Of a stretch of DNA of 52,753 nucleotides, positions 11,227 through 36,757 are shown piece after piece (position 1 is the first letter of the stretch; each line of letters opens with the position of its first letter). The translations under genes and the position numbers were made by a program. Origin of the DNA: an uncultured bacterium (lineage in GTDB: Bacteria > Planctomycetota > Brocadiia > Brocadiales > Scalinduaceae); NCBI GenBank assembly GCA_913055705.1, contig CAJXKT010000001.1, forward strand, positions 1 to 52,753, written 5' to 3'. Under the pieces are notes generated by a model. That model did no database searches and was not told the origin of the DNA. It saw only the letters and a list, made by a program, of their open reading frames with translations.

Positions 11227-13704
11227 TTAGCCTTGATTCGCCTTAACCCTTGAAATAACACCATTAATAGATGATTCTGAGTCTTTTTTTGTTTCTACAA
11301 GGAACGTAATCACTAAGAAACTATTTATACAGGATATGCTGCTATACTTACCTTTCAAATCTTCAAATGTATACAATGTGTCAGTTTTAACACTGTCTTC
11401 ACCCCATGATTCTCTTAACTCAATGAAATTCTTAAAAGATTCCTCTGCAACTGACTTTTCAGAGTATTTGACTATCAATATTTTGAAAGGCAGACTACTC
11501 TTGTCAGATTTATAATCAGCAACTACTGCATCTGTCTGTTCACTTAGATTTAATACATTTCTATCAATAAACTTGTCAGAAATATAAATATTATCAAGGA
11601 TTATCTTTTTGTGAAAATACCTTGAGCTTCCCTGGATATATCCGTCTTCAGGTAAATACATTAGAATAGCCGGCAAACTAACCTTACCGGCAAGTATGTT
11701 GTCTACAATAGCGGTACCAATAAATGTAATATCATCAGGGCTGACATTCCCTCTGTAAGGCTCAATACTCATGAAATATTTACCTTTCCATACCCACAGA
11801 TAGTTTTCATATAACGAGGCTTCGTTTCCAATATTTACGCCTTGCCCTGCTCTATCCTTTGCAAATATACCGTAGGCATCATCAGAACTGCCAAATTCCC
11901 AGATGTCCACCTTAACAGAATTATCAGTATCCTTCTTAGCATACACAGCTTTTGATACCTGGATAAATGAATAGGACAAATAAACCTCTGCACCTCCATT
12001 GATGTATTCAAAAAGTTTATCCTTACCGGCATACACAGTCGACTTTCCTTTTCTCTTCCAGTCTTCAACAGATACAGGAAAAAGGTCATTTTCCAGCATG
12101 CCAATTTCGCTTGTCATTACCTGAGGCTGTATTCCTTCAACAACTATTGCAGAACGTCCATTTACAGGACAAACCTTTTCACAGAAACCACATCCTATAC
12201 ATGCTTCTTCTCTTACATAAACCCTTCTTATCTCCTTACCATTACCATGAACATATGTATTGAAATGGATTGCTTTTGTCGGGACAGGACAAACCTCTTC
12301 ACATACGCCGCAACTGACATCCTCCCAATTCTTGTCCAGATCCGGTAATCGCGCATAGCCGACCCACGGGATGCACCTGTTCCTGTCTATCCTGGCTTTT
12401 CCTATTGCCAGCCGTTTCTTCTTCTCTTTAGGAAGCCTGGTAATTGCCCCTGAAGGGCAAACTTTTGTACACAGTACACAATCATGGGCGCAATACCCAA
12501 TCCGTGGGATCAGCTGTGGGGTCCACATTCCGCTCAAATCCGCCTCTAAAATTGTAGGATGCAGGCCATTTGTTTTACACACTCTCATACACTCGCCACA
12601 TCTTATACACTTAGCCCGGAATTTATCTTCAGGGATTGAGCCGGGAGGACGAATAATTCCAAAATCACCATTACTCTTCTTCTGAAAGTTAAGTGATAGA
12701 AGAGGAGCTACCGCGGCACTGGAAACACACGCCGTTATAAAACCTCTCTTTGTCAAATTTACAGGGACTACCTGCTCCGACGGCTGTTTAGATGTAAACC
12801 TGACTGCTCCTATAGGACATATATCCTGGCACTTCATACATAAAATGCACTCACCTGCCTGTGTTTTCTTTCCCGTATCATCAATCGCCCCCATCTTGCA
12901 ATCTACCGTACATTTATCGCATCCATCACAAATGTTCTGCCCCACAACACGCTTAAAAATAGACCAATCTGAAAACAGAGCGAATAAGGCTCCTAATGGG
13001 CACAGATCCCTGCACCAATATCTCTTATAAAACAAACCTAAAGATATGATTGCAGAAAGTACTATCAGGAAAATCAAATGCCCTCTGAAAAACGGCGCTT
13101 GCCTGGCAAATAACGCTTCATTTATAAAAACATGGACTTTATCGCTTACAAAACTTATCAGGTAGAATTTATGAAGGAAGTTGAAAAATGAGTTGATTAG
13201 AGAAACGAGATAAGGATGGATAACAATTGTATATGCATTTGTGGCAATACTGATTGGATCAAACCATCCAACCATCTGATGGCCTATAAACAGGCTCAGG
13301 AGGAGAAAGGCCAGTATATAATATTTCAGCCGTTTGGCATCATAAATCTTATATGAAACCCTGTTTCTTTGTTTCTTCAGTAAACGATCTGTAATATCAA
13401 GTGTTGTCCCGAGAGGACATATCCAACCGCAAAAGAAACGGCCTAAAAATAGAGAGGCTGCCAGTACAATAATAGCCGGCCAATACTTTATTATAAATTC
13501 CTTTGCCGCTACCATTGCACCAATTGCAGAAAGCGGACTCATACGGAGAAAGATATCTACCGTTCCGTCCTTTTCGGCAATGGGGTCTGCATATATCAAC
13601 AGACAAATGAATACAATAAAAACAAGTATTTGTACCGCCAGCCTGATCTTGTAATTTATTGAACCTTTTTTTATGTTTACATTACTATTTCCTGTCATTC
13701 TCAA
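11227..13704 (-). CDS. Membrane polyferredoxin (NapH-like plus NapG/MauM-like 4Fe-4S domains) fused to a C-terminal DUF6599-like domain
   Basis: GRFFCGWICPLG and RYWCRDLCPLG; several CxxCxxCxxxC clusters; RPPG motif; internal TKRGFI before a hydrophobic helix; LFEYINGGAE and DAYGIF in the last ~280 aa. Confidence 0.8.
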   Translation of the reverse strand: MRMTGNSNVNIKKGSINYKIRLAVQILVFIVFICLLIYADPIAEKDGTVDIFLRMSPLSAIGAMVAAKEFIIKYWPAIIVLAASLFLGRFFCGWICPLGTTLDITDRLLKKQRNRVSYKIYDAKRLKYYILAFLLLSLFIGHQMVGWFDPISIATNAYTIVIHPYLVSLINSFFNFLHKFYLISFVSDKVHVFINEALFARQAPFFRGHLIFLIVLSAIISLGLFYKRYWCRDLCPLGALFALFSDWSIFKRVVGQNICDGCDKCTVDCKMGAIDDTGKKTQAGECILCMKCQDICPIGAVRFTSKQPSEQVVPVNLTKRGFITACVSSAAVAPLLSLNFQKKSNGDFGIIRPPGSIPEDKFRAKCIRCGECMRVCKTNGLHPTILEADLSGMWTPQLIPRIGYCAHDCVLCTKVCPSGAITRLPKEKKKRLAIGKARIDRNRCIPWVGYARLPDLDKNWEDVSCGVCEEVCPVPTKAIHFNTYVHGNGKEIRRVYVREEACIGCGFCEKVCPVNGRSAIVVEGIQPQVMTSEIGMLENDLFPVSVEDWKRKGKSTVYAGKDKLFEYINGGAEVYLSYSFIQVSKAVYAKKDTDNSVKVDIWEFGSSDDAYGIFAKDRAGQGVNIGNEASLYENYLWVWKGKYFMSIEPYRGNVSPDDITFIGTAIVDNILAGKVSLPAILMYLPEDGYIQGSSRYFHKKIILDNIYISDKFIDRNVLNLSEQTDAVVADYKSDKSSLPFKILIVKYSEKSVAEESFKNFIELRESWGEDSVKTDTLYTFEDLKGKYSSISCINSFLVITFLVETKKDSESSINGVISRVKANQG

Positions 13705-13724
13705 ATCTTTTTATCCGACACGAT

Positions 13725-14711
13725 CTAAATTGTTATTTCTCCAAAGCCTCTTAATTTAAAATCAATCTCTCCCAGTCCCGCCCCATACGACTCCCGGATA
13801 AAACCTATATCACGGCCATGATAACCAAACATGGTGGCACCGTATGAATCCACTGCCACAGGATCAACACAAAACACTAATCTTCTGGCATTTTCATAAT
13901 TGTTGTCAACATCCTCCAGCCTTCCACCCGTAGGACCATTTCGTTTTAAGATTCTGAATGCGTCAAGAACAGTAAGATCAACCTTCACAACTTTATTAAT
14001 ATCTGCTATTTTTGGATGTATATCCTTGTGTATCGAACCTCTGTTACCACCTATCATTCCCATAGTATTCTTAAGTGCCATAGATAAACGTGAAGTACTA
14101 TGCTGCTTTGCTATAGGAACATTTATCAACACGTCAGCTTCATCCTGATATATAAACTTCTCATAAAAAGGCCATGAATCAAGTAGCTTGCCACCCGGTA
14201 TCTTGAAATCCTTAAACAGTCTCTCGTTAACAAATCTAACCTCTGCACCAACCTCTTTTGCAGCTTTTTCGATCCCGCTATTTATATATGAAGGGCCTGG
14301 ATTCTTTGCGCAGGTATGATCAAGCACGCTCACTCTATTCGCCCCGGCTTCTATACACATCTCAGCCAATGCAGCAACAACAAAGGGATTTGTGTTTACT
14401 GCGTACTCAGGCTGCCTGTCCCATGCTATGTTTGGTTTGATAACAACATTATCACCCCTTGAAACCAGTTTGTCCATTCCGCCAATGGCTTTAATACCTC
14501 TACTCACCATTTCTCTTATTATGGAGCTTTCATCATTTCTCTCAACAATATCACCATGTACTACAACCAGTTTCTTTTTTAAACTATTTTCTTTAAACGT
14601 CTTCAGCGACCTTGGCCTTTCAAACGAACTCAAATACGAGAGGCCATAAAGTCCTGTTCCGACTGCAATACCAGTCTTAAGAAAAGTTCTTCTTGAAATA
14701 TTATCTTTCAT
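13725..14711 (-). CDS. DUF362-domain protein with twin-arginine signal peptide
   Basis: SRRTFLK signal; GD.VVIKPNIAWD, TNPFVVAAL, LINVPIAKQH, LKNTMG, DPVAVD. Confidence 0.85.
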   Translation of the reverse strand: MKDNISRRTFLKTGIAVGTGLYGLSYLSSFERPRSLKTFKENSLKKKLVVVHGDIVERNDESSIIREMVSRGIKAIGGMDKLVSRGDNVVIKPNIAWDRQPEYAVNTNPFVVAALAEMCIEAGANRVSVLDHTCAKNPGPSYINSGIEKAAKEVGAEVRFVNERLFKDFKIPGGKLLDSWPFYEKFIYQDEADVLINVPIAKQHSTSRLSMALKNTMGMIGGNRGSIHKDIHPKIADINKVVKVDLTVLDAFRILKRNGPTGGRLEDVDNNYENARRLVFCVDPVAVDSYGATMFGYHGRDIGFIRESYGAGLGEIDFKLRGFGEITI

Positions 14712-14795: not shown

Positions 14796-15769
14796 CTAAT
14801 CAAACAAAGCATCCACAAACTTATCTGCATCAAATTCCTGAATATCATCTACACCTTCACCAAGGCCAACATATTTTACCGGTATATCTACCTCCTTACG
14901 CATACCCAGGATAACACCGCCTTTTGCGGTCCCATCAAGTTTTGCCAGAAATATTCCCGTAATATCAACTGCACGTTTAAATAATTTTGCCTGTGAAATT
15001 GCATTTTGCCCTGTAGTGGCATCCAGAACCATTAACACTTCATGAGGAGCATTCTCAATCTTTTTCGATATTACCCTTTTAATCTTTGACAACTCATTCA
15101 TTAAATTCTCATGAGTGTGTAAGCGTCCGGCAGTATCAACGATCAAAACATCTATTCCCCTGCTCAAACTGGCTTCAAGTGCATCAAACGTTACTGCAGC
15201 AGGATCTGCACCAGCCTGATGCTTTACTATATCGGCGCCGATCCTTTTACTCCATATATCCAGTTGTTCCGTAGCAGCGGCACGGAAGGTATCACCTGCT
15301 GCCAGCATAACTTTCTTGCCCTGCTTCACAAATAAATTGGCAAGTTTTGCGATAGACGTGGTCTTGCCAACACCATTAACTCCTGCAACCATAATCACAG
15401 TTGGAGATGCAGACGCGACTCTTAAAGCAGAATCCCCATTTCTGAGGTTTTTCTTGAGATCCTCTTTTAAGAAATCGTAAACACCCGGTGTATCTTCAAT
15501 CTCTTTAGATTTCCAGGCAACTCTAATATCCTGAACAATCTCAGTCACCTGGCTAACCCCCACATCTGACTCAAGCAAAATAGCTTCCAGTTCATCAAGA
15601 ACACCTTCATCAATTTTCCTTCTGAACGACAATAGATCCTTAAATCTAGAGGTTATTTTGCCGCGTGTTTTTGCAGGCTGTTCTTTAGTTGCTGAAATGG
15701 AGACCAAGATTTGTCTTTTACGTCTTCTTGTTTCGTTGTAACCGATTTCTTTTTTGAAAACCAACCCAT
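14796..15769 (-). CDS. ftsY: SRP receptor FtsY; the 5' part is in a different frame because of a 1-nt deficit at the A5 run 15668-15672
   Basis: GVNGVGKTTSIAKLA, DTFRAAA, DTAGR, DATTGQNA, AKLDGTAKGG; ATG 15769 reads MGWFSKKK...FQQLKNSLQK and joins TRGKIT if one A is added. Confidence 0.9.
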
Positions 15770-15900
15770 TATTTAATCTGTATAGAAGTCGTGTTTTGAT
15801 ATGCCGGTATAACAAACTGGAGGATGCCACAAAAGTTCCCATGCAGAACGCGGGTGCCAGAGAGACTGGAGCAACCACATAACTTTATTAAAATACTCTC

Positions 15901-17202
15901 TTAACTCAAAACACCAACCAGATTATCACGCCTTTCCTTAATCTTGTCAACCAAACTATCATCTATTTTTATACTTCCTAACTTAGCATCTGGTTTTCGT
16001 TCACCATGACAGTCCGAACCACCGGTAATTACAAGATCGTATTTTTTTGCTATTCGCTTATATCTTTTTATAGCTTCTGGCAGGTGTGATGGACAATAGA
16101 CCTCTATCCCTTGCAGACCATATTCAACCATCTCGGGAATCAGCATATCTCTTTTGTTAATGCCAGGGTGTGCAAGAACAGGAACACCGCCTGATGAAAT
16201 GATAAGCTCGATAGCATCTTTTAATGTCAGCGTTACTTTAGGTACATATGCAGGTCCATGATCAGACAGGTACTTTTGAAAACTTTCCCTAATATCGCGG
16301 CAATAACCTTTTCTACACAATACGTCAGCAACATGCATACGCCCGGGTGACCCCATCTCTGCAACATCGAAGACTTCCTGATGCTCTATATTAACACCCA
16401 TACCTCTAAGCATACTGGTTATCTTCTTAATTCGCTCAACTCTTTCAAGACGCAGCTCAGCTAATTTCTCCAGAAGCATACTATTCTTTATATCTAAAAA
16501 ATAACCTAAGAGATGAATATCAACAGGACGATAATAAGAAGATAGTTCTATTGCGGGAATAATATTTATCCCCTTCTTATGACAAACGTTTTGGGCAATT
16601 TCGACAGCATCTACACTATCATGGTCGGTTATTGCAATCGTACGGAGGTTGAGCTTGGATGCCTCCTCAACTACTTCTTCCGGTGACATGGTTCCGTCTG
16701 AAAACTTCGTATGAATATGTAAATCAGCACCCGCCCGTTCTTCCAGGCTTTTGTTATCTCTGATATTTGCGGTAACTTCTTGAACCCCTTCATTATTCTT
16801 TATATATATTGTATATACCTTATCCAACACTCCATTTACAAATAAGCCGGATTTTTCAGTACTGTATTTCTTAGCTAAATCAATCGCCTCGTTGATGGAA
16901 ACCTTTGGGGGGATATCATCCATATAAAACAACTCATAGCATGCCAGCCTTAAGACATTTCTGTCTACAACCGGCATCCTGTGCATATCCCAATGTTCAG
17001 ATAGTTGAGTTATCTTTTTATCTATTACTTTTATTTTCTGAATACACCCTTTAGCTAATATCGCAGCAAAATCACTTATTGCAGCATCTTTACCTTGTTC
17101 CCGGCAAAAAGTATCTATCTCATTTAAAACTTCATTGCCACGAAGCTCTAATTGATAAAGAACCTGTAATACGATCTCACGAGAATGCGTTCTTTTTCGC
17201 AT
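15901..17202 (-). CDS. nusB: NusB (aa 1-130) fused to a PHP-domain phosphoesterase/exoribonuclease of the TrpH/YciV type (aa ~159-433)
   Basis: R..SRE..LQ.LY, DRNVLRLA.YEL, INEAIDLAKKY, FVNGVLD; then DLHIHT..SDG, TDHD, IELS, HLLGY, GRMHVA, AHPG, GIEV, GGSDCHG. Confidence 0.9.
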   Translation of the reverse strand: MRKRTHSREIVLQVLYQLELRGNEVLNEIDTFCREQGKDAAISDFAAILAKGCIQKIKVIDKKITQLSEHWDMHRMPVVDRNVLRLACYELFYMDDIPPKVSINEAIDLAKKYSTEKSGLFVNGVLDKVYTIYIKNNEGVQEVTANIRDNKSLEERAGADLHIHTKFSDGTMSPEEVVEEASKLNLRTIAITDHDSVDAVEIAQNVCHKKGINIIPAIELSSYYRPVDIHLLGYFLDIKNSMLLEKLAELRLERVERIKKITSMLRGMGVNIEHQEVFDVAEMGSPGRMHVADVLCRKGYCRDIRESFQKYLSDHGPAYVPKVTLTLKDAIELIISSGGVPVLAHPGINKRDMLIPEMVEYGLQGIEVYCPSHLPEAIKRYKRIAKKYDLVITGGSDCHGERKPDAKLGSIKIDDSLVDKIKERRDNLVGVLS

Positions 17203-17228: not shown

Positions 17229-17696
17229 CTATTTCATTTTATCAAACAAATTCACCATCTCCAGGGCTGCAAGTGCGGCCTCTGCACCCTTGTTACCGCC
17301 TCTGGCACCAGCTCTATCTATAGCCTGTTCCAATGTATCAGTTGTAATTACTCCATATATTGTTGGAATACCCGTTGTAAGCCCTACCTCAGAAATACCC
17401 TTCGCTGATTCACTGGAAACATAATCAAAATGAGGTGTCTCACCACGTATTACTGCCCCGAGACAAATGATACCATTATGTTTTGTGTTTTTAGCCACTC
17501 TCATAGCCGTAATCGGCAGCTCACAAGCTCCCGGAACCCAGAACACATCGATATCATCATCCTTAATGCCATGTCTAATCAAACAGTCCTGAGCACCTTC
17601 TAACAGCTTCTTCGTAATAAAACTATTAAACCTGCTGACAACAATACCAAAGGTCTTATTCTTACCAATAAGGTTACCTTCAAACGATTTTACCAT
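17229..17696 (-). CDS. ribH: 6,7-dimethyl-8-ribityllumazine synthase
   Basis: SRFN, VPGA.ELP, LGAVIRGETPHFDYV, NKGAEAA; ribH-nusB synteny. Confidence 0.97.
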   Translation of the reverse strand: MVKSFEGNLIGKNKTFGIVVSRFNSFITKKLLEGAQDCLIRHGIKDDDIDVFWVPGACELPITAMRVAKNTKHNGIICLGAVIRGETPHFDYVSSESAKGISEVGLTTGIPTIYGVITTDTLEQAIDRAGARGGNKGAEAALAALEMVNLFDKMK

Positions 17697-18081: not shown

Positions 18082-19422
18082 ATGGAAGAAAAAGAAATTA
18101 GCGAAAAAAGATTACCCATAAGCGAACATCTTGAAGAGCTGCGATCAAGGATTATAAACTCAATCATCGTAGTTGTTGTACTATTCTTTATCAGTTGGTT
18201 CTATAAGTTAAGAATTCTTGATATTATAAAAAAGCCTCATAGTATTACCATGGAAAGCCTGGGGTTGTCACAATCGCTTCAGGTGCTGAGTTATCAAGAA
18301 GGTTTTTATGCTTATATAAAGCTGTGCTTAATGACAGCAGTTTTCCTGGCATATCCTGTAATCTTATATCAAATCTGGAAATTTGTAGAAGCCGGTTTAT
18401 ATAAGAAAGAGCGCAGATACGTAAGAATCTTTGCCCCTATCTCATTCATCGCATTCATATTAGGTGTATTATTCGGGTATTTCTTCTTAATACCCTTTGG
18501 CCTTCAATTCCTGATAAAGGTACTGGGAGGGGGAATACAGCCTATTATTACAATGAGCCAGTATATCTCGCTTGTAACTATGCTGACACTCGCACTCGGC
18601 GTTGTTTTCCAGCTTCCCCTTATAATGTTGTTTGTTTCCAGGATTGGAATGCTTAAGGCAGAAGATTTTATTAAATGGCGAATGTATGCTATCCTTATCA
18701 TATTTATTCTTGCCGCAGTAATAACGCCACCGGACCCGTTTACACAGGTCATGACGGCTTTACCTATGATAATTCTTTATGAAATAGGCATTCTCACAAT
18801 AAGACCCACAAAGAAAGCAGTTACACAATTCAGTATCTTATTAGGTTCCGGTATATTACTGATATATATAGTTCTTTTGATATTCACACTTCCAACAAAA
18901 GCGGATTTCTTAAATTCAACCGGTGTTGTTAAGATGCTCCCGGACTCAGTCACAAATTGGCAACCTTTATCATCCGAATCTAAAATTCACAATGGCACCT
19001 CACTAAGAACAGGAAAAGGTAGTAAAGCCTCCTTCCTCCTGAAAGATGGTACCTATGTCATAATGGATGTTAATACTGAAATCAAGTTTGTTAAAAACAG
19101 AAAACTCGACCTGCTAAATGGACAAATACTCCTCTCTATAAAGGCAGATGAAAAACCATTTATGATAGCCGCCAACAATAACGTCATAACTTCAAATGAC
19201 GGCAACGTTGATATAAGGATATCAAAACACATGGTCTTTGTTACGGTAACAGAGGGAGAAGCAATAGTTGTTGCAAATGGAGAAAAGAAGAAAGTGTTTG
19301 AAGGAAGGCAATTGAAACTTGTAACCGGAGGCGAACCGGCAAATATAGACAAAGTTCTGAAATGGGCTAAAGAAATGCGCAAAAAATTAGAAGAACAGAA
19401 CAAACGGAATTTAGGCCTGTAG
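18082..19422 (+). CDS. tatC: Twin-arginine translocase TatC (aa 1-~241) fused to an extra TM helix and a FecR-like C-terminal domain
   Basis: HLEELRSR, YQIWKF..GLY..E, FQLP, ITPPDPFTQ, LYEIG; then TM aa 250-270 and LRTG.GS.A...L.DGT....D.NT.I, L.LL.GQI, PF.I, VTVTEG. Confidence 0.9.
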   Translation: MEEKEISEKRLPISEHLEELRSRIINSIIVVVVLFFISWFYKLRILDIIKKPHSITMESLGLSQSLQVLSYQEGFYAYIKLCLMTAVFLAYPVILYQIWKFVEAGLYKKERRYVRIFAPISFIAFILGVLFGYFFLIPFGLQFLIKVLGGGIQPIITMSQYISLVTMLTLALGVVFQLPLIMLFVSRIGMLKAEDFIKWRMYAILIIFILAAVITPPDPFTQVMTALPMIILYEIGILTIRPTKKAVTQFSILLGSGILLIYIVLLIFTLPTKADFLNSTGVVKMLPDSVTNWQPLSSESKIHNGTSLRTGKGSKASFLLKDGTYVIMDVNTEIKFVKNRKLDLLNGQILLSIKADEKPFMIAANNNVITSNDGNVDIRISKHMVFVTVTEGEAIVVANGEKKKVFEGRQLKLVTGGEPANIDKVLKWAKEMRKKLEEQNKRNLGL

Positions 19423-19667: not shown

Positions 19668-20117
19668 TTATTGTCTGCCCTGATCCTCGTACTTCATAAC
19701 TAATTCTTCCTGTTCGATGGTCTCTATTGAACCGGGCCTCTTCATTCTGACTTTTTCTATTGCCTTTGCAGCATTGTATCCTTTGCTGACAAGGTAACAT
19801 GCCAGCACGGTTCCAGTCCTTCCTATACCCGCATCACAGTGAACCACCAGCTTTTTACCCTCAGCACATGCTTCCTCTGCAAATGCCATAAAGTCTTCAA
19901 TCTGCTCCAACGTCGGAGCTTCAAAGTCTCTAACCGGAAGATGCTTTACACTAAAACCAAATTCCTCTATCAATGTTTCATTAAGGGGAAATTCAGTAAG
20001 TGATACTATTGCTTCAAAACCATTTTCTTTGAGGAATTCAAAATCATACACAGAAGACGCTGGTTTAGCCATGCCAGCAATTTCGCCTTCTATTAACCAG
20101 CTAAAGTTTCTAATCAC
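19668..20117 (-). CDS. Dual-specificity protein phosphatase (CX5R)
   Basis: NFSWL, HLPVRDFEAPT, VHCDAGIGRTGT, RPGSIET. Confidence 0.92.
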   Translation of the reverse strand: MIRNFSWLIEGEIAGMAKPASSVYDFEFLKENGFEAIVSLTEFPLNETLIEEFGFSVKHLPVRDFEAPTLEQIEDFMAFAEEACAEGKKLVVHCDAGIGRTGTVLACYLVSKGYNAAKAIEKVRMKRPGSIETIEQEELVMKYEDQGRQ

Positions 20118-23085: not shown

Positions 23086-23889
23086 CTATTGACAGAAAAA
23101 TCCTTGCAAACTTAAGTTCGTATTAAACATATTATTAAGTTGATTGTATCTTTCTAAGTTTCTCTTGTTCTTTCCCTTTTGTTTCCTTGCGGATATTAAA
23201 ATATTCTTCGGAGTTAATTTCGGAGATACTATTTCTAGAAGTTCTACATAGTATCCATTACCGGAAAGAAATTGTGATCTTAACGCATCTGTTAATATGT
23301 CCGCAAATTTATACCGCAGCAAACCAAACTGAGTCACACTTGTTAAAGGGTGATGAGATTTTATTTGAGAACGCAACTGCCCCTGGCAACATGGTACAAC
23401 CATAATATACTTAGCACCCATTTTAATACCTTTGGCAATTGCTTCATCAGTAGCTGTATTACATGCATGCAGTGCAATAACTACATCAATCTTTCTATCA
23501 TAAGAAGAATCAATCGTCCTTCCATGCTTAAAGACCATATTCTCATAACCTAAAACAGATCTGGTCTCCTCACATCTTTGTATAAGTTCTTTATTGGTAT
23601 CTATGCCGAAGAAAAAGGGTGTTGTACTAAGCTCACTCTCAAGAATATAACTTAAAACAAACGAAAGGTAAGATTTACCACATGAACATTCCAGAAAGAC
23701 AATTTCTTTTTCTCTGTCAAACTTCCTGACGACCTTCAATATTTGTTCACAAAAACCGGCAATCTCATTAATTTTCTTGTTCATCTCCTTTTTTAACAGA
23801 CCATTGTTGTGCCTGAATCCAAGGGGATTTGTTATGTTGTCTTCTTGTTCTAAGAGATTTAGTATTTCTGCTTTATTTGTTATTCTCAT
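23086..23889 (-). CDS. Class I SAM-dependent methyltransferase (Methyltransf_32-like)
   Basis: LECSCGKSYL (motif I), GIDTN, ALHACNTATDEAI, VPCCQ, TDALR, TPKN. Confidence 0.8.
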   Translation of the reverse strand: MRITNKAEILNLLEQEDNITNPLGFRHNNGLLKKEMNKKINEIAGFCEQILKVVRKFDREKEIVFLECSCGKSYLSFVLSYILESELSTTPFFFGIDTNKELIQRCEETRSVLGYENMVFKHGRTIDSSYDRKIDVVIALHACNTATDEAIAKGIKMGAKYIMVVPCCQGQLRSQIKSHHPLTSVTQFGLLRYKFADILTDALRSQFLSGNGYYVELLEIVSPKLTPKNILISARKQKGKNKRNLERYNQLNNMFNTNLSLQGFFCQ

Positions 23890-36439: not shown

Positions 36440-36757
36440 CTACGCTTTTATTTTTACTTCTATTCCCGCAGGCATATTAAGCTTGTTCAAAGCATCAACA
36501 GCCTTCGGCGTTGGCTCAATAATATCTATCAACCGTTTGTGTGTCCTCATTTCAAACTGCTCTCTGGACTTCTTATCAACGTGCGGTGAACGAAGAACTG
36601 TATACCTCTCCATACGCGTTGGTAATGGTATCGGCCCGGACACCTTTGCTCCCGTACGCTTGGCAGTTTCTATTATATCTGCAGCCGACTGATCAAGAAT
36701 CCTGTGATCATAAGCTTCCATACGAATTCTAATTTTAAAATCTATTTCATTTCCCAT
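36440..36757 (-). CDS. rpsJ: 30S ribosomal protein S10
   Basis: [29 protein letters not shown]. Confidence 0.98.

What the first reader, a model, noticed from the sequence alone, without database searches (positions are those of the whole stretch)
15901..17202. NusB fused to an intact RNase AM (YciV/TrpH)-type PHP domain
Seen: a complete NusB (aa 1-130), a ~28-aa polar linker with no stop or Met, then a PHP domain with its metal-ligand motifs intact (HxH, SDG, TDHD, E, HLLGY, AHP, GGSDxH) and the RxxR/GRxH insertion subdomain. It sits in the normal ribH-nusB-ftsY position. Known: NusB binds boxA in the rRNA antitermination complex, and E. coli YciV/RNase AM is a 5'-3' exonuclease that trims rRNA 5' ends. 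Inference: the fusion could tether a 5'-end maturation nuclease to the rrn transcription complex, coupling antitermination to rRNA processing. I do not know of a description of this architecture but cannot search. Related PHP proteins are pAp phosphatases, so the substrate is uncertain.
Basis: partly seen in the sequence, partly recalled or inferred. Interest (0 to 1): 0.8.

Follow-up and report, generated by a model that had tools for sequence, protein, structure and literature searches.

The report
NusB fused to RNase AM-like enzyme
In anammox bacteria and their relatives the only copy of the ribosomal-RNA transcription factor NusB is joined by a variable linker to a complete enzyme domain of the RNase AM family, which likely trims RNA 5' ends and would be carried along to newly made ribosomal RNA; whether that coupling matters to the cell is untested.

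Summary
Observation confirmed. ORF 15901-17202(-) is one 433-aa protein: NusB (aa 1-130), a disordered 27-aa linker, and a TrpH/YciV-family PHP domain. Contigs from three studies bridge the linker. It is the only NusB in this Ca. Scalindua genome. NusB sits in a fusion-length frame in 90 of 102 class Brocadiia genomes with a nusB match, and a separate Planctomycetota lineage fused it independently. The fusion joins two genes already adjacent, often overlapping, in an old ribH-nusB-php-ftsY operon also seen in Verrucomicrobiota and Hydrogenedentota. All 9 metal ligands, the 5'-phosphate pocket and the main boxA-binding residues are kept, and the rrn operons carry boxA. The PHP domain is RNase AM-like but fails the RNase AM equivalog model. 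Tethering to pre-rRNA is plausible but unshown: E. coli RNase AM acts late, on assembled particles, one anammox-order family keeps the genes separate, and a near-neutral fusion of neighbours explains the data almost as well. If the tether matters, the likelier targets are 5'-phosphate ends next to boxA. I found no description in six literature searches; this scan has reported the same fusion on other genomes several times.

The parts
15901..17202 (-). nusB-php fusion gene, 433 aa, only NusB and only YciV-like PHP of the genome
   Evidence: tblastn finds one copy of each half in G000; one TIGR01951 match
16813..17202 (-). NusB domain, aa 1-130; Arg-rich N-terminus, D80 and F121 (A. aeolicus E81, F122)
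   Evidence: residue roles from PMC3177189 passages
16732..16812 (-). linker, aa 131-157; variable in sequence and length, predicted disordered, no Met or stop
   Evidence: pLDDT under 50 at aa 136-155; mean top-residue fraction 0.31 against 0.73 (NusB) and 0.68 (PHP) over 102 rows; bridged by contigs
15904..16731 (-). TrpH/YciV-family (RNase AM-like) PHP phosphoesterase domain with insertion lobe, aa 158-433
   Evidence: H162 H164 D169 H194 E219 H230 H345 D397 H399, R254 R257 R288 F308 invariant in 102 fusion proteins
17229..17696 (-). ribH (lumazine synthase), upstream gene of the conserved operon
   Evidence: TIGR00114 over cut-off; conserved position
14796..15878 (-). ftsY, downstream gene of the conserved operon
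   Evidence: TIGR00064 over cut-off; conserved position
36440..36757 (-). rpsJ (S10/NusE), NusB's partner in boxA binding; context
   Evidence: PF00338
51123..51683 (-). nusG, part of the rrn antitermination complex; context
   Evidence: PF02357

Best explanation
The gene encodes one two-domain protein, a likely working NusB tied by a variable, predicted flexible linker to a likely active RNase AM-like 5'-phosphate-dependent exonuclease, which would be carried to pre-rRNA when NusB binds boxA and most likely acts on 5'-phosphate ends next to boxA. Shown: the fusion, its conservation, the intact residues, boxA in the rrn leader and spacer, and its origin from two adjacent operon genes, at least twice. 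Inferred from family knowledge: NusB-NusE binds boxA; RNase III and RNase E/G cut pre-rRNA and leave 5'-monophosphate ends; the three-metal PHP site removes nucleotides from such ends. Inferred, my mechanism: the leader-trailer helix starts just 3' of boxA, so new 5'-P ends and the boxA-bearing offcuts arise within reach of the tethered domain, which would nibble precursors early or clear offcuts and so recycle NusB. Final 3-nt trimming of assembled particles, if it occurs here, would be done by fusion protein not bound to boxA.
For: Single-copy fusion-length frame in 90 of 102 class genomes with a nusB match, 71 of 73 in the order Brocadiales (my count; full-length matches). Independent second fusion in family f100 (2 of 373 genomes outside the class; 19 related clusters); AU tests reject one origin (p 8.9e-54; p 0.00083 with G001 included). 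Only this junction is fused: 12 fused NusB-PHP loci against 0 fused at RibH-NusB (46 adjacent) and 0 at PHP-FtsY (59 adjacent) (loci are related, not independent). nusB-php adjacency also in Verrucomicrobiota and Hydrogenedentota. 13 of 14 RNase AM site residues kept (residues from PMC9410882). boxA-like motif in 7 of 7 spacers and 4 of 7 leaders. RNase III and RNase E/G in 5 of 5 genomes; RNase J not found in 151 Planctomycetota. NrnA-size DHH proteins and inositol-phosphatase-family genes in 5 of 5 could cover nanoRNA and pAp clearance. Precedents: RNase AM paralogs fused to RNase III in some Deltaproteobacteria (PMC7261194); the rrn complex boosts co-transcriptional RNase III cutting, and the authors argue that stable NusE/B sequestration of processed boxBAC RNA would be harmful (bioRxiv 10.64898/2026.03.17.712431).
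Against: No activity or binding was measured. E. coli RNase AM works best on ribosomal particles and over-digests free rRNA, so an early tethered exonuclease could be harmful. The same bioRxiv paper says NusE/B binds boxBAC only transiently outside the complex, which lessens any need for offcut clearance. Family f2 keeps the genes separate, and php stays with ftsY rather than nusB in 8 loci of 3 families (one cut by a contig end), against 3 loci with nusB-php and no ftsY hit. 60 of 151 Planctomycetota have neither this PHP (at E 1e-20) nor RNase J. The AlphaFold model gives no sign of fixed domain packing (pTM 0.63, about the PHP share of the chain). RibH assembles into oligomers and FtsY targets membranes (recalled), so their junctions may simply not tolerate fusion. 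R201 of E. coli RNase AM is not kept.
Confidence: 0.45

Rival explanations
1. Near-neutral fusion of neighbours: the two genes were translationally coupled in the ribH-nusB-php-ftsY operon, a small mutation removed the stop, and the fused domains each do their own job (antitermination; late rRNA 5' trimming or oligo-RNA decay) with at most a co-expression benefit.
For: 28 of 52 separate nusB/php pairs overlap and 45 of 52 lie within 30 nt. Linker length 20-78 aa with no conserved sequence. Separate genes in f2 inside Brocadiales: sister to Scalinduaceae at 97/94 in the NusB+PHP tree, though the four-gene AU test does not reject an outside position (p 0.33). G125 has an in-frame TAG at the linker end. 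Other fusions sit nearby in this lineage (TatC-FecR). The operon also holds functionally unrelated genes.
Against: Repeated fusion at this one junction and retention across 90 of 102 genomes; nusB-php adjacency across at least three phyla; the same enzyme family fuses to RNase III elsewhere.
Confidence: 0.38
2. The PHP domain is mainly a small-molecule or nanoRNA phosphoesterase (pAp 3'-phosphatase, diribonuclease or deFADding enzyme), unrelated to rRNA ends; NusB only carries it.
For: Highest NCBIfam PHP score is the Cv1693-type 3',5'-bisphosphate phosphatase model (186 bits, under cut-off). RNase AM prefers pAp over longer substrates, and the Pseudomonas enzyme is a diribonuclease (PMC11528712); deFADding is reported (PMC9410882). 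The same pocket residues serve all these activities.
Against: Candidate pAp and nanoRNA enzymes (DHH, inositol-phosphatase family) exist separately in 5 of 5 genomes (their specificities not resolved). It gives no reason for repeated linkage to nusB.
Confidence: 0.13
3. The PHP domain is a riboflavin-pathway phosphatase kept with ribH, and its join to NusB is positional only.
For: ribH lies upstream in most operon copies; raised by first readers of earlier findings in this scan.
Against: Many loci have nusB-php-ftsY or php-ftsY with no ribH hit; the pocket matches 5'-nucleotide binding residue for residue.
Confidence: 0.04

Closest known systems
NusB (TIGR01951; T. maritima 1tzt, A. aeolicus NusB-NusE-boxA 3r2c, E. 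coli 3d3b/6tqn)
   Same: Full domain over the equivalog cut-off; TM 0.89 over 3r2c chain B; F122, E81 (as Asp) and basic N-terminus kept; ribH-nusB position; boxA in rrn.
   Different: Carries a C-terminal linker and a 276-aa enzyme; the solved NusB chains listed are stand-alone, 139-156 aa.
RNase AM (Rnm/YciV/TrpH) of E. coli (7ug9), V. cholerae (9etk) and P. aeruginosa
   Same: Same fold with insertion lobe (9etk TM 0.86, rmsd 2.1), 9 metal ligands, R107/R110/R141 pocket, F161.
   Different: About 30% identity; under the NF047791 cut-off; outside the proteobacterial clade; no R201; fused to NusB; operon ribH-nusB-php-ftsY, not rnm-yciO-yciQ-rluB.
Cv1693 pAp phosphatase (2yb1; NF041577) and B. 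adolescentis BAD_1165 (3e0f/3o0f)
   Same: Same family and site; 3e0f is the best sequence and fold match.
   Different: Under the NF041577 cut-off (186 of 400); both are stand-alone proteins.
RNase AM-RNase III fusions of some Deltaproteobacteria
   Same: The same enzyme family joined to an rRNA-biogenesis factor (one sentence in PMC7261194); one metagenome locus has rnc just upstream of php (L158).
   Different: Partner is a processing endonuclease, not a transcription factor; no functional test seen.
RsmB/Sun/Fmu
   Same: A NusB-fold domain joined to an rRNA-acting enzyme (NCBIfam RsmB hits at aa 5-135; 1sqf).
   Different: There the NusB-like domain scores under the nusB cut-off and the enzyme is a methyltransferase; here the domain is the cell's only true NusB.

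Membership tests
NusB | Score over TIGR01951 equivalog cut-off across the whole domain | tested here: met
   134.1 bits against 88.35, aa 4-130
NusB | boxA-binding residues (Aa F122, E81, K118, G78 backbone; basic N-terminus) | tested here: met
   F121 in 102 of 102, D/E80 in 102 of 102, R8 in 101, R4 in 97; position 117 varies (N 56, K 39) and position 77 is Ala/Pro; roles from PMC3177189 passages
NusB | Cognate boxA in rrn leader and 16S-23S spacer; NusE and NusG present | tested here: met
   Recalled consensus, up to 1 mismatch: 7 of 7 spacers, 4 of 7 leaders in 6 genomes, chance 0.04-0.11 per region; rpsJ and nusG in the window
NusB | Binds NusE and boxA and supports antitermination | not testable with these tools
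   Needs binding and complementation assays
TrpH/YciV-like PHP phosphoesterases (COG0613) | PHP barrel plus insertion lobe, trinuclear metal site | tested here: met
   Foldseek TM 0.83-0.87 over 3e0f, 9etk, 3o0f, 2yb1; 9 ligands invariant in 102 fusions
RNase AM (Rnm, NF047791) | Score over the equivalog cut-off | tested here: not met
   152.4 bits against 375
RNase AM (Rnm, NF047791) | Groups with characterised RNase AM in a tree | tested here: not met
   Six proteobacterial sequences form their own clade (SH-aLRT 96, quick tree of 78 rows); Planctomycete PHPs lie outside it, as distant orthologs from another phylum also would
RNase AM (Rnm, NF047791) | 5'-phosphate pocket R107/R110/R141 and stacking F161 | tested here: met
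   R254, R257, R288, F308 invariant; residues from PMC9410882
RNase AM (Rnm, NF047791) | R201 contacting the active-site anion | tested here: not met
   I348 here, L/V/A/T in relatives; P. aeruginosa has His at this place
RNase AM (Rnm, NF047791) | 5'-3' exonuclease activity that matures rRNA 5' ends | not testable with these tools
   Needs enzyme assay and 5'-end mapping
Cv1693-type 3',5'-nucleoside bisphosphate phosphatase (NF041577) | Score over the equivalog cut-off | tested here: not met
   186 bits against 400
Phosphoribosyl 1,2-cyclic phosphate diphosphodiesterase (NF041661) | Score over the equivalog cut-off | tested here: not met
   110 bits against 500

The most novel reading that the evidence does not exclude
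Planctomycetota have hard-wired a 5'-3' exoribonuclease into the rRNA antitermination complex, at least twice: NusB delivers it to boxA so that pre-rRNA 5'-phosphate ends are trimmed, or boxA-bearing offcuts destroyed, while the operon is still being transcribed. The unfused nusB-php pairs of Verrucomicrobiota and Hydrogenedentota would mark the same partnership as a two-protein complex.
Probability: 0.33. Interest if true: 0.75.

Novelty: new variant of a known kind. Interest (0 to 1): 0.5.

Why it matters
How rRNA transcription is coupled to rRNA processing is an active question: the E. coli antitermination complex was recently shown to boost RNase III cutting, but no nuclease is known to be part of it in the papers I saw. 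A natural NusB-exonuclease fusion is a ready-made test, expressible in laboratory E. coli. It also names the likely 5' RNA-trimming enzyme of anammox bacteria, where RNase J was not found, and corrects annotation: most named database entries call these proteins plain NusB, and one RNase AM phylogeny dropped sequences over 400 aa, which would exclude them. If the fusion is neutral, it is an ordinary case of operon neighbours merging.

Tried and rejected
Assembly artefact or two genes: rejected. Internal restart giving a free PHP: no Met in this linker; 18 of 102 rows have a linker Met past residue 6, so no shared start; no promoter-like site in the linker. Anammox-specific innovation: rejected, the fusion also covers families f10 and f11 outside the order and f100 outside the class. 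Single origin: rejected by AU tests. Fission in f2: favoured, not established. RNase J absence as proof of need: uninformative, 60 of 151 genomes have neither. Degenerate NusB: not seen; relative NusB rate 1.28 in fused against 1.66 in separate pairs, descriptive only. Expression: RNA-library contigs cover the gene, but contigs show no strand or level and I laid no silent control stretch, so transcription is not shown. The careful PHP-only tree did not finish; the quick tree was used. The complex-prediction tool, the profile search of protein representatives and the protein atlas were not available, so domain-domain contact and the range of the fusion beyond Planctomycetota rest only. Literature: 'NusB + PHP domain + fusion' 0 papers; 'NusB + Kuenenia' 0; 'NusB + anammox' 18, 'NusB/phosphoesterase/Planctomycetes' 73 with 20 listed, 'NusB + fused + ribH' 5 with 4 listed, 'NusB/domain architecture/PHP/Brocadia' 18 with 10 listed: none of the listings seen points to this fusion; I did not open those papers.

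Full report
Observation. The interval 15901-17202 is one open frame on the minus strand, 433 aa. Residues 4-130 pass the NusB equivalog model (134.1 against 88.35 bits). Residues 157-430 match solved TrpH/YciV-family PHP proteins: BAD_1165 (3e0f), V. cholerae and E. coli RNase AM (9etk, 7ug9) and Cv1693 (2yb1) by sequence and by fold. The AlphaFold model from an 18-row alignment has mean pLDDT 88, a low-confidence stretch at aa 136-155 and pTM 0.63, which I read as two independently placed domains. ribH and ftsY flank the gene. Of 23 listed runs I laid 4; gap-free contigs bridge the linker in 3, from three studies, two of them RNA libraries. Contigs cannot show strand, level or a single transcript. 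The closest named relatives are Ca. Scalindua at up to 94% identity. The 95%-complete genome has one copy of each half.

Range. In 107 class genomes at least 85% complete, 102 have a nusB match over the cut-off and 5 have none. By my count of its open-frame column, 90 of the 102 lie in frames of 398 aa or more and 12 in frames of 236 aa or less. The 12 are both f2 genomes, all 8 of f6-f9, G125 (in-frame TAG at the linker end) and G124 (contig edge). Inside the order Brocadiales 71 of 73 are long. Named members include Scalindua, Brocadia, Jettenia and Ca. Brocadiia bacteria outside the order. Among 373 genomes outside the class, an unbroken match over both domains was listed for only 2, both family f100 (475 weaker matches were not listed). 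That form has 19 related clusters. The top 80 of 576 metagenome loci gave 1 fused, 25 adjacent, 53 PHP-only and 1 nusB-only locus, some too short to show a neighbour. Cluster names place adjacent pairs in Verrucomicrobiota and Ca. Hydrogenedentota (two clusters also carry Patescibacteria labels that I do not rely on).

Origin. In 60 fetched regions the order ribH-nusB-php-ftsY recurs across Planctomycetota, mostly as separate genes. Of 52 separate nusB/php pairs, 28 overlap, 17 lie within 30 nt, 6 are further apart and 1 has no standard start. Fusion therefore needs only a small mutation. A four-gene tree of 35 chosen loci needs 3 changes of state, all forced by starred branches. One clade of all fused forms is rejected (p-AU 8.9e-54; 0.00083 with G001). 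The simplest histories are two fusions and one fission, or three fusions. Fission in f2 is favoured by the NusB+PHP tree but not established by the four-gene test (p 0.33). In G002 nusB follows ribH on one contig and php-ftsY lies on another. No RibH-NusB or PHP-FtsY fusion was seen in 46 and 59 adjacent pairs, but these loci are related, and those partners may not tolerate fusion (recalled: RibH oligomers, FtsY membrane targeting).

Are both halves working? PMC9410882 (passages) lists the RNase AM metal ligands, the 5'-phosphate pocket R107/R110/R141, stacking F161 and R201. Mapped on my alignment, 13 of 14 positions are identical in all 20 fused rows and invariant in 102 fusion proteins. R201 is replaced; P. 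aeruginosa has His there and its enzyme is active (PMC11528712, passages). The domain fails the RNase AM, Cv1693 and cyclic-phosphate models and lies outside the clade of six proteobacterial enzymes (quick tree). So it likely works like RNase AM or Cv1693, but I do not file it as either. On the NusB side F121 and D/E80 are kept in 102 of 102 rows; positions 77 and 117 vary (roles from PMC3177189 passages). A recalled boxA consensus matches 7 of 7 16S-23S spacers and 4 of 7 leaders in 6 genomes, at 0.04-0.11 by chance per region; the other three leaders show a more degenerate version by eye. Predicted leader-trailer pairing runs from just 3' of boxA, as in E. coli (PMC10250234, passages). NusE and NusG are in the window. 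RNase III and RNase E/G occur in 5 of 5 genomes tested. RNase J was found in 0 of 151 Planctomycetota, with 10 of 14 controls ringing, but only 91 of those 151 have this PHP.

Mechanism. Because this is the only NusB, any boxA-bound NusB carries the enzyme unless the linker is cut; that follows from the anatomy. Whether it matters is open. Jain 2020 (PMC7261194; parts 2 and 3 of 4 and passages) shows RNase AM removing the last 3 nt on ribosomal particles, late, and over-digesting free rRNA, which argues against final maturation on the transcription complex. The same paper notes RNase AM paralogs fused to RNase III in some Deltaproteobacteria. Chaban et al. 2026 (bioRxiv 10.64898/2026.03.17.712431; abstract and first part of the Discussion) show that the complex boosts co-transcriptional RNase III cutting, and argue that processed boxBAC RNA must not stay bound to NusE/B; they explain this by transient binding. 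I therefore think the likeliest use of the tether is on 5'-phosphate ends made beside boxA: early trimming, or clearing of offcuts (0.45). The near-neutral fusion of coupled neighbours is almost as likely (0.38). A mainly pAp, dinucleotide or FAD-cap role gets 0.13, since DHH and inositol-phosphatase-family genes are present separately. A riboflavin-pathway role gets 0.04.

Novelty. Both parts are known and the Pfam pair is visible in public data, but named entries are mostly labelled plain NusB. Six searches of the open literature showed no description (listings only; subscription journals and supplements not seen). The RNase AM phylogeny of PMC11528712 removed sequences over 400 aa. The original Cv1693 and TrpH enzymology papers were not read. 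This scan has reported the same fusion on other genomes; those notes agree with my reading and are not evidence. Verdict: a real, conserved, repeatedly evolved new architecture of known parts, with a testable but unproven link between rRNA transcription and 5'-end RNA trimming. Interest 0.5.

Noticed in passing
window 18082-19422 (+): TatC fused to a C-terminal FecR domain (446 aa); the same architecture in Brocadiales loci L051 and L052.
   Followed up: partly
window 11227-14711 (-): An 825-aa multi-4Fe-4S protein with a C-terminal DUF6599 domain, preceded by a DUF362 protein with a weak TAT-signal match; DUF362 follows ftsY in several relatives.
   Followed up: partly
window 23086-23889 (-): A Methyltransf_32 gene inserted between two ribosomal protein genes that I recognise from their sequences as rpsM and rpsK.
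   Followed up: no
window 19668-20117 (-): Small dual-specificity phosphatase gene directly after the gene I recognise as rplQ.
   Followed up: no
window 15922-15950 (-): Sigma-70-like site (11 of 12 matches) inside the end of the PHP coding region, just upstream of ftsY; total sites in the region were at chance level (12 against 15.4).
   Followed up: no
L207:754-2091 (G125): In-frame TAG at the end of the linker, with no ATG/GTG/TTG before the first metal-binding His of the PHP: a fission, read-through or assembly error.
   Followed up: partly
L158:2038-3936: RNase III gene directly upstream of a stand-alone YciV-like PHP gene in a metagenome contig.
   Followed up: partly
class-wide search: A second, RsmB-like NusB-domain hit appears in most f4 and all f6-f9 genomes but not in f1 (including this genome), f2, f3, f5, f10 or f11.
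   Followed up: no
L093, L094 (f11 paralogs); L055, L085 (f65): PHP copies with altered 5'-phosphate pockets: K/Q for R107/R110 in the f11 paralogs; K or Q for R141 and L or I for F161 in the f65 operon copies.
   Followed up: no
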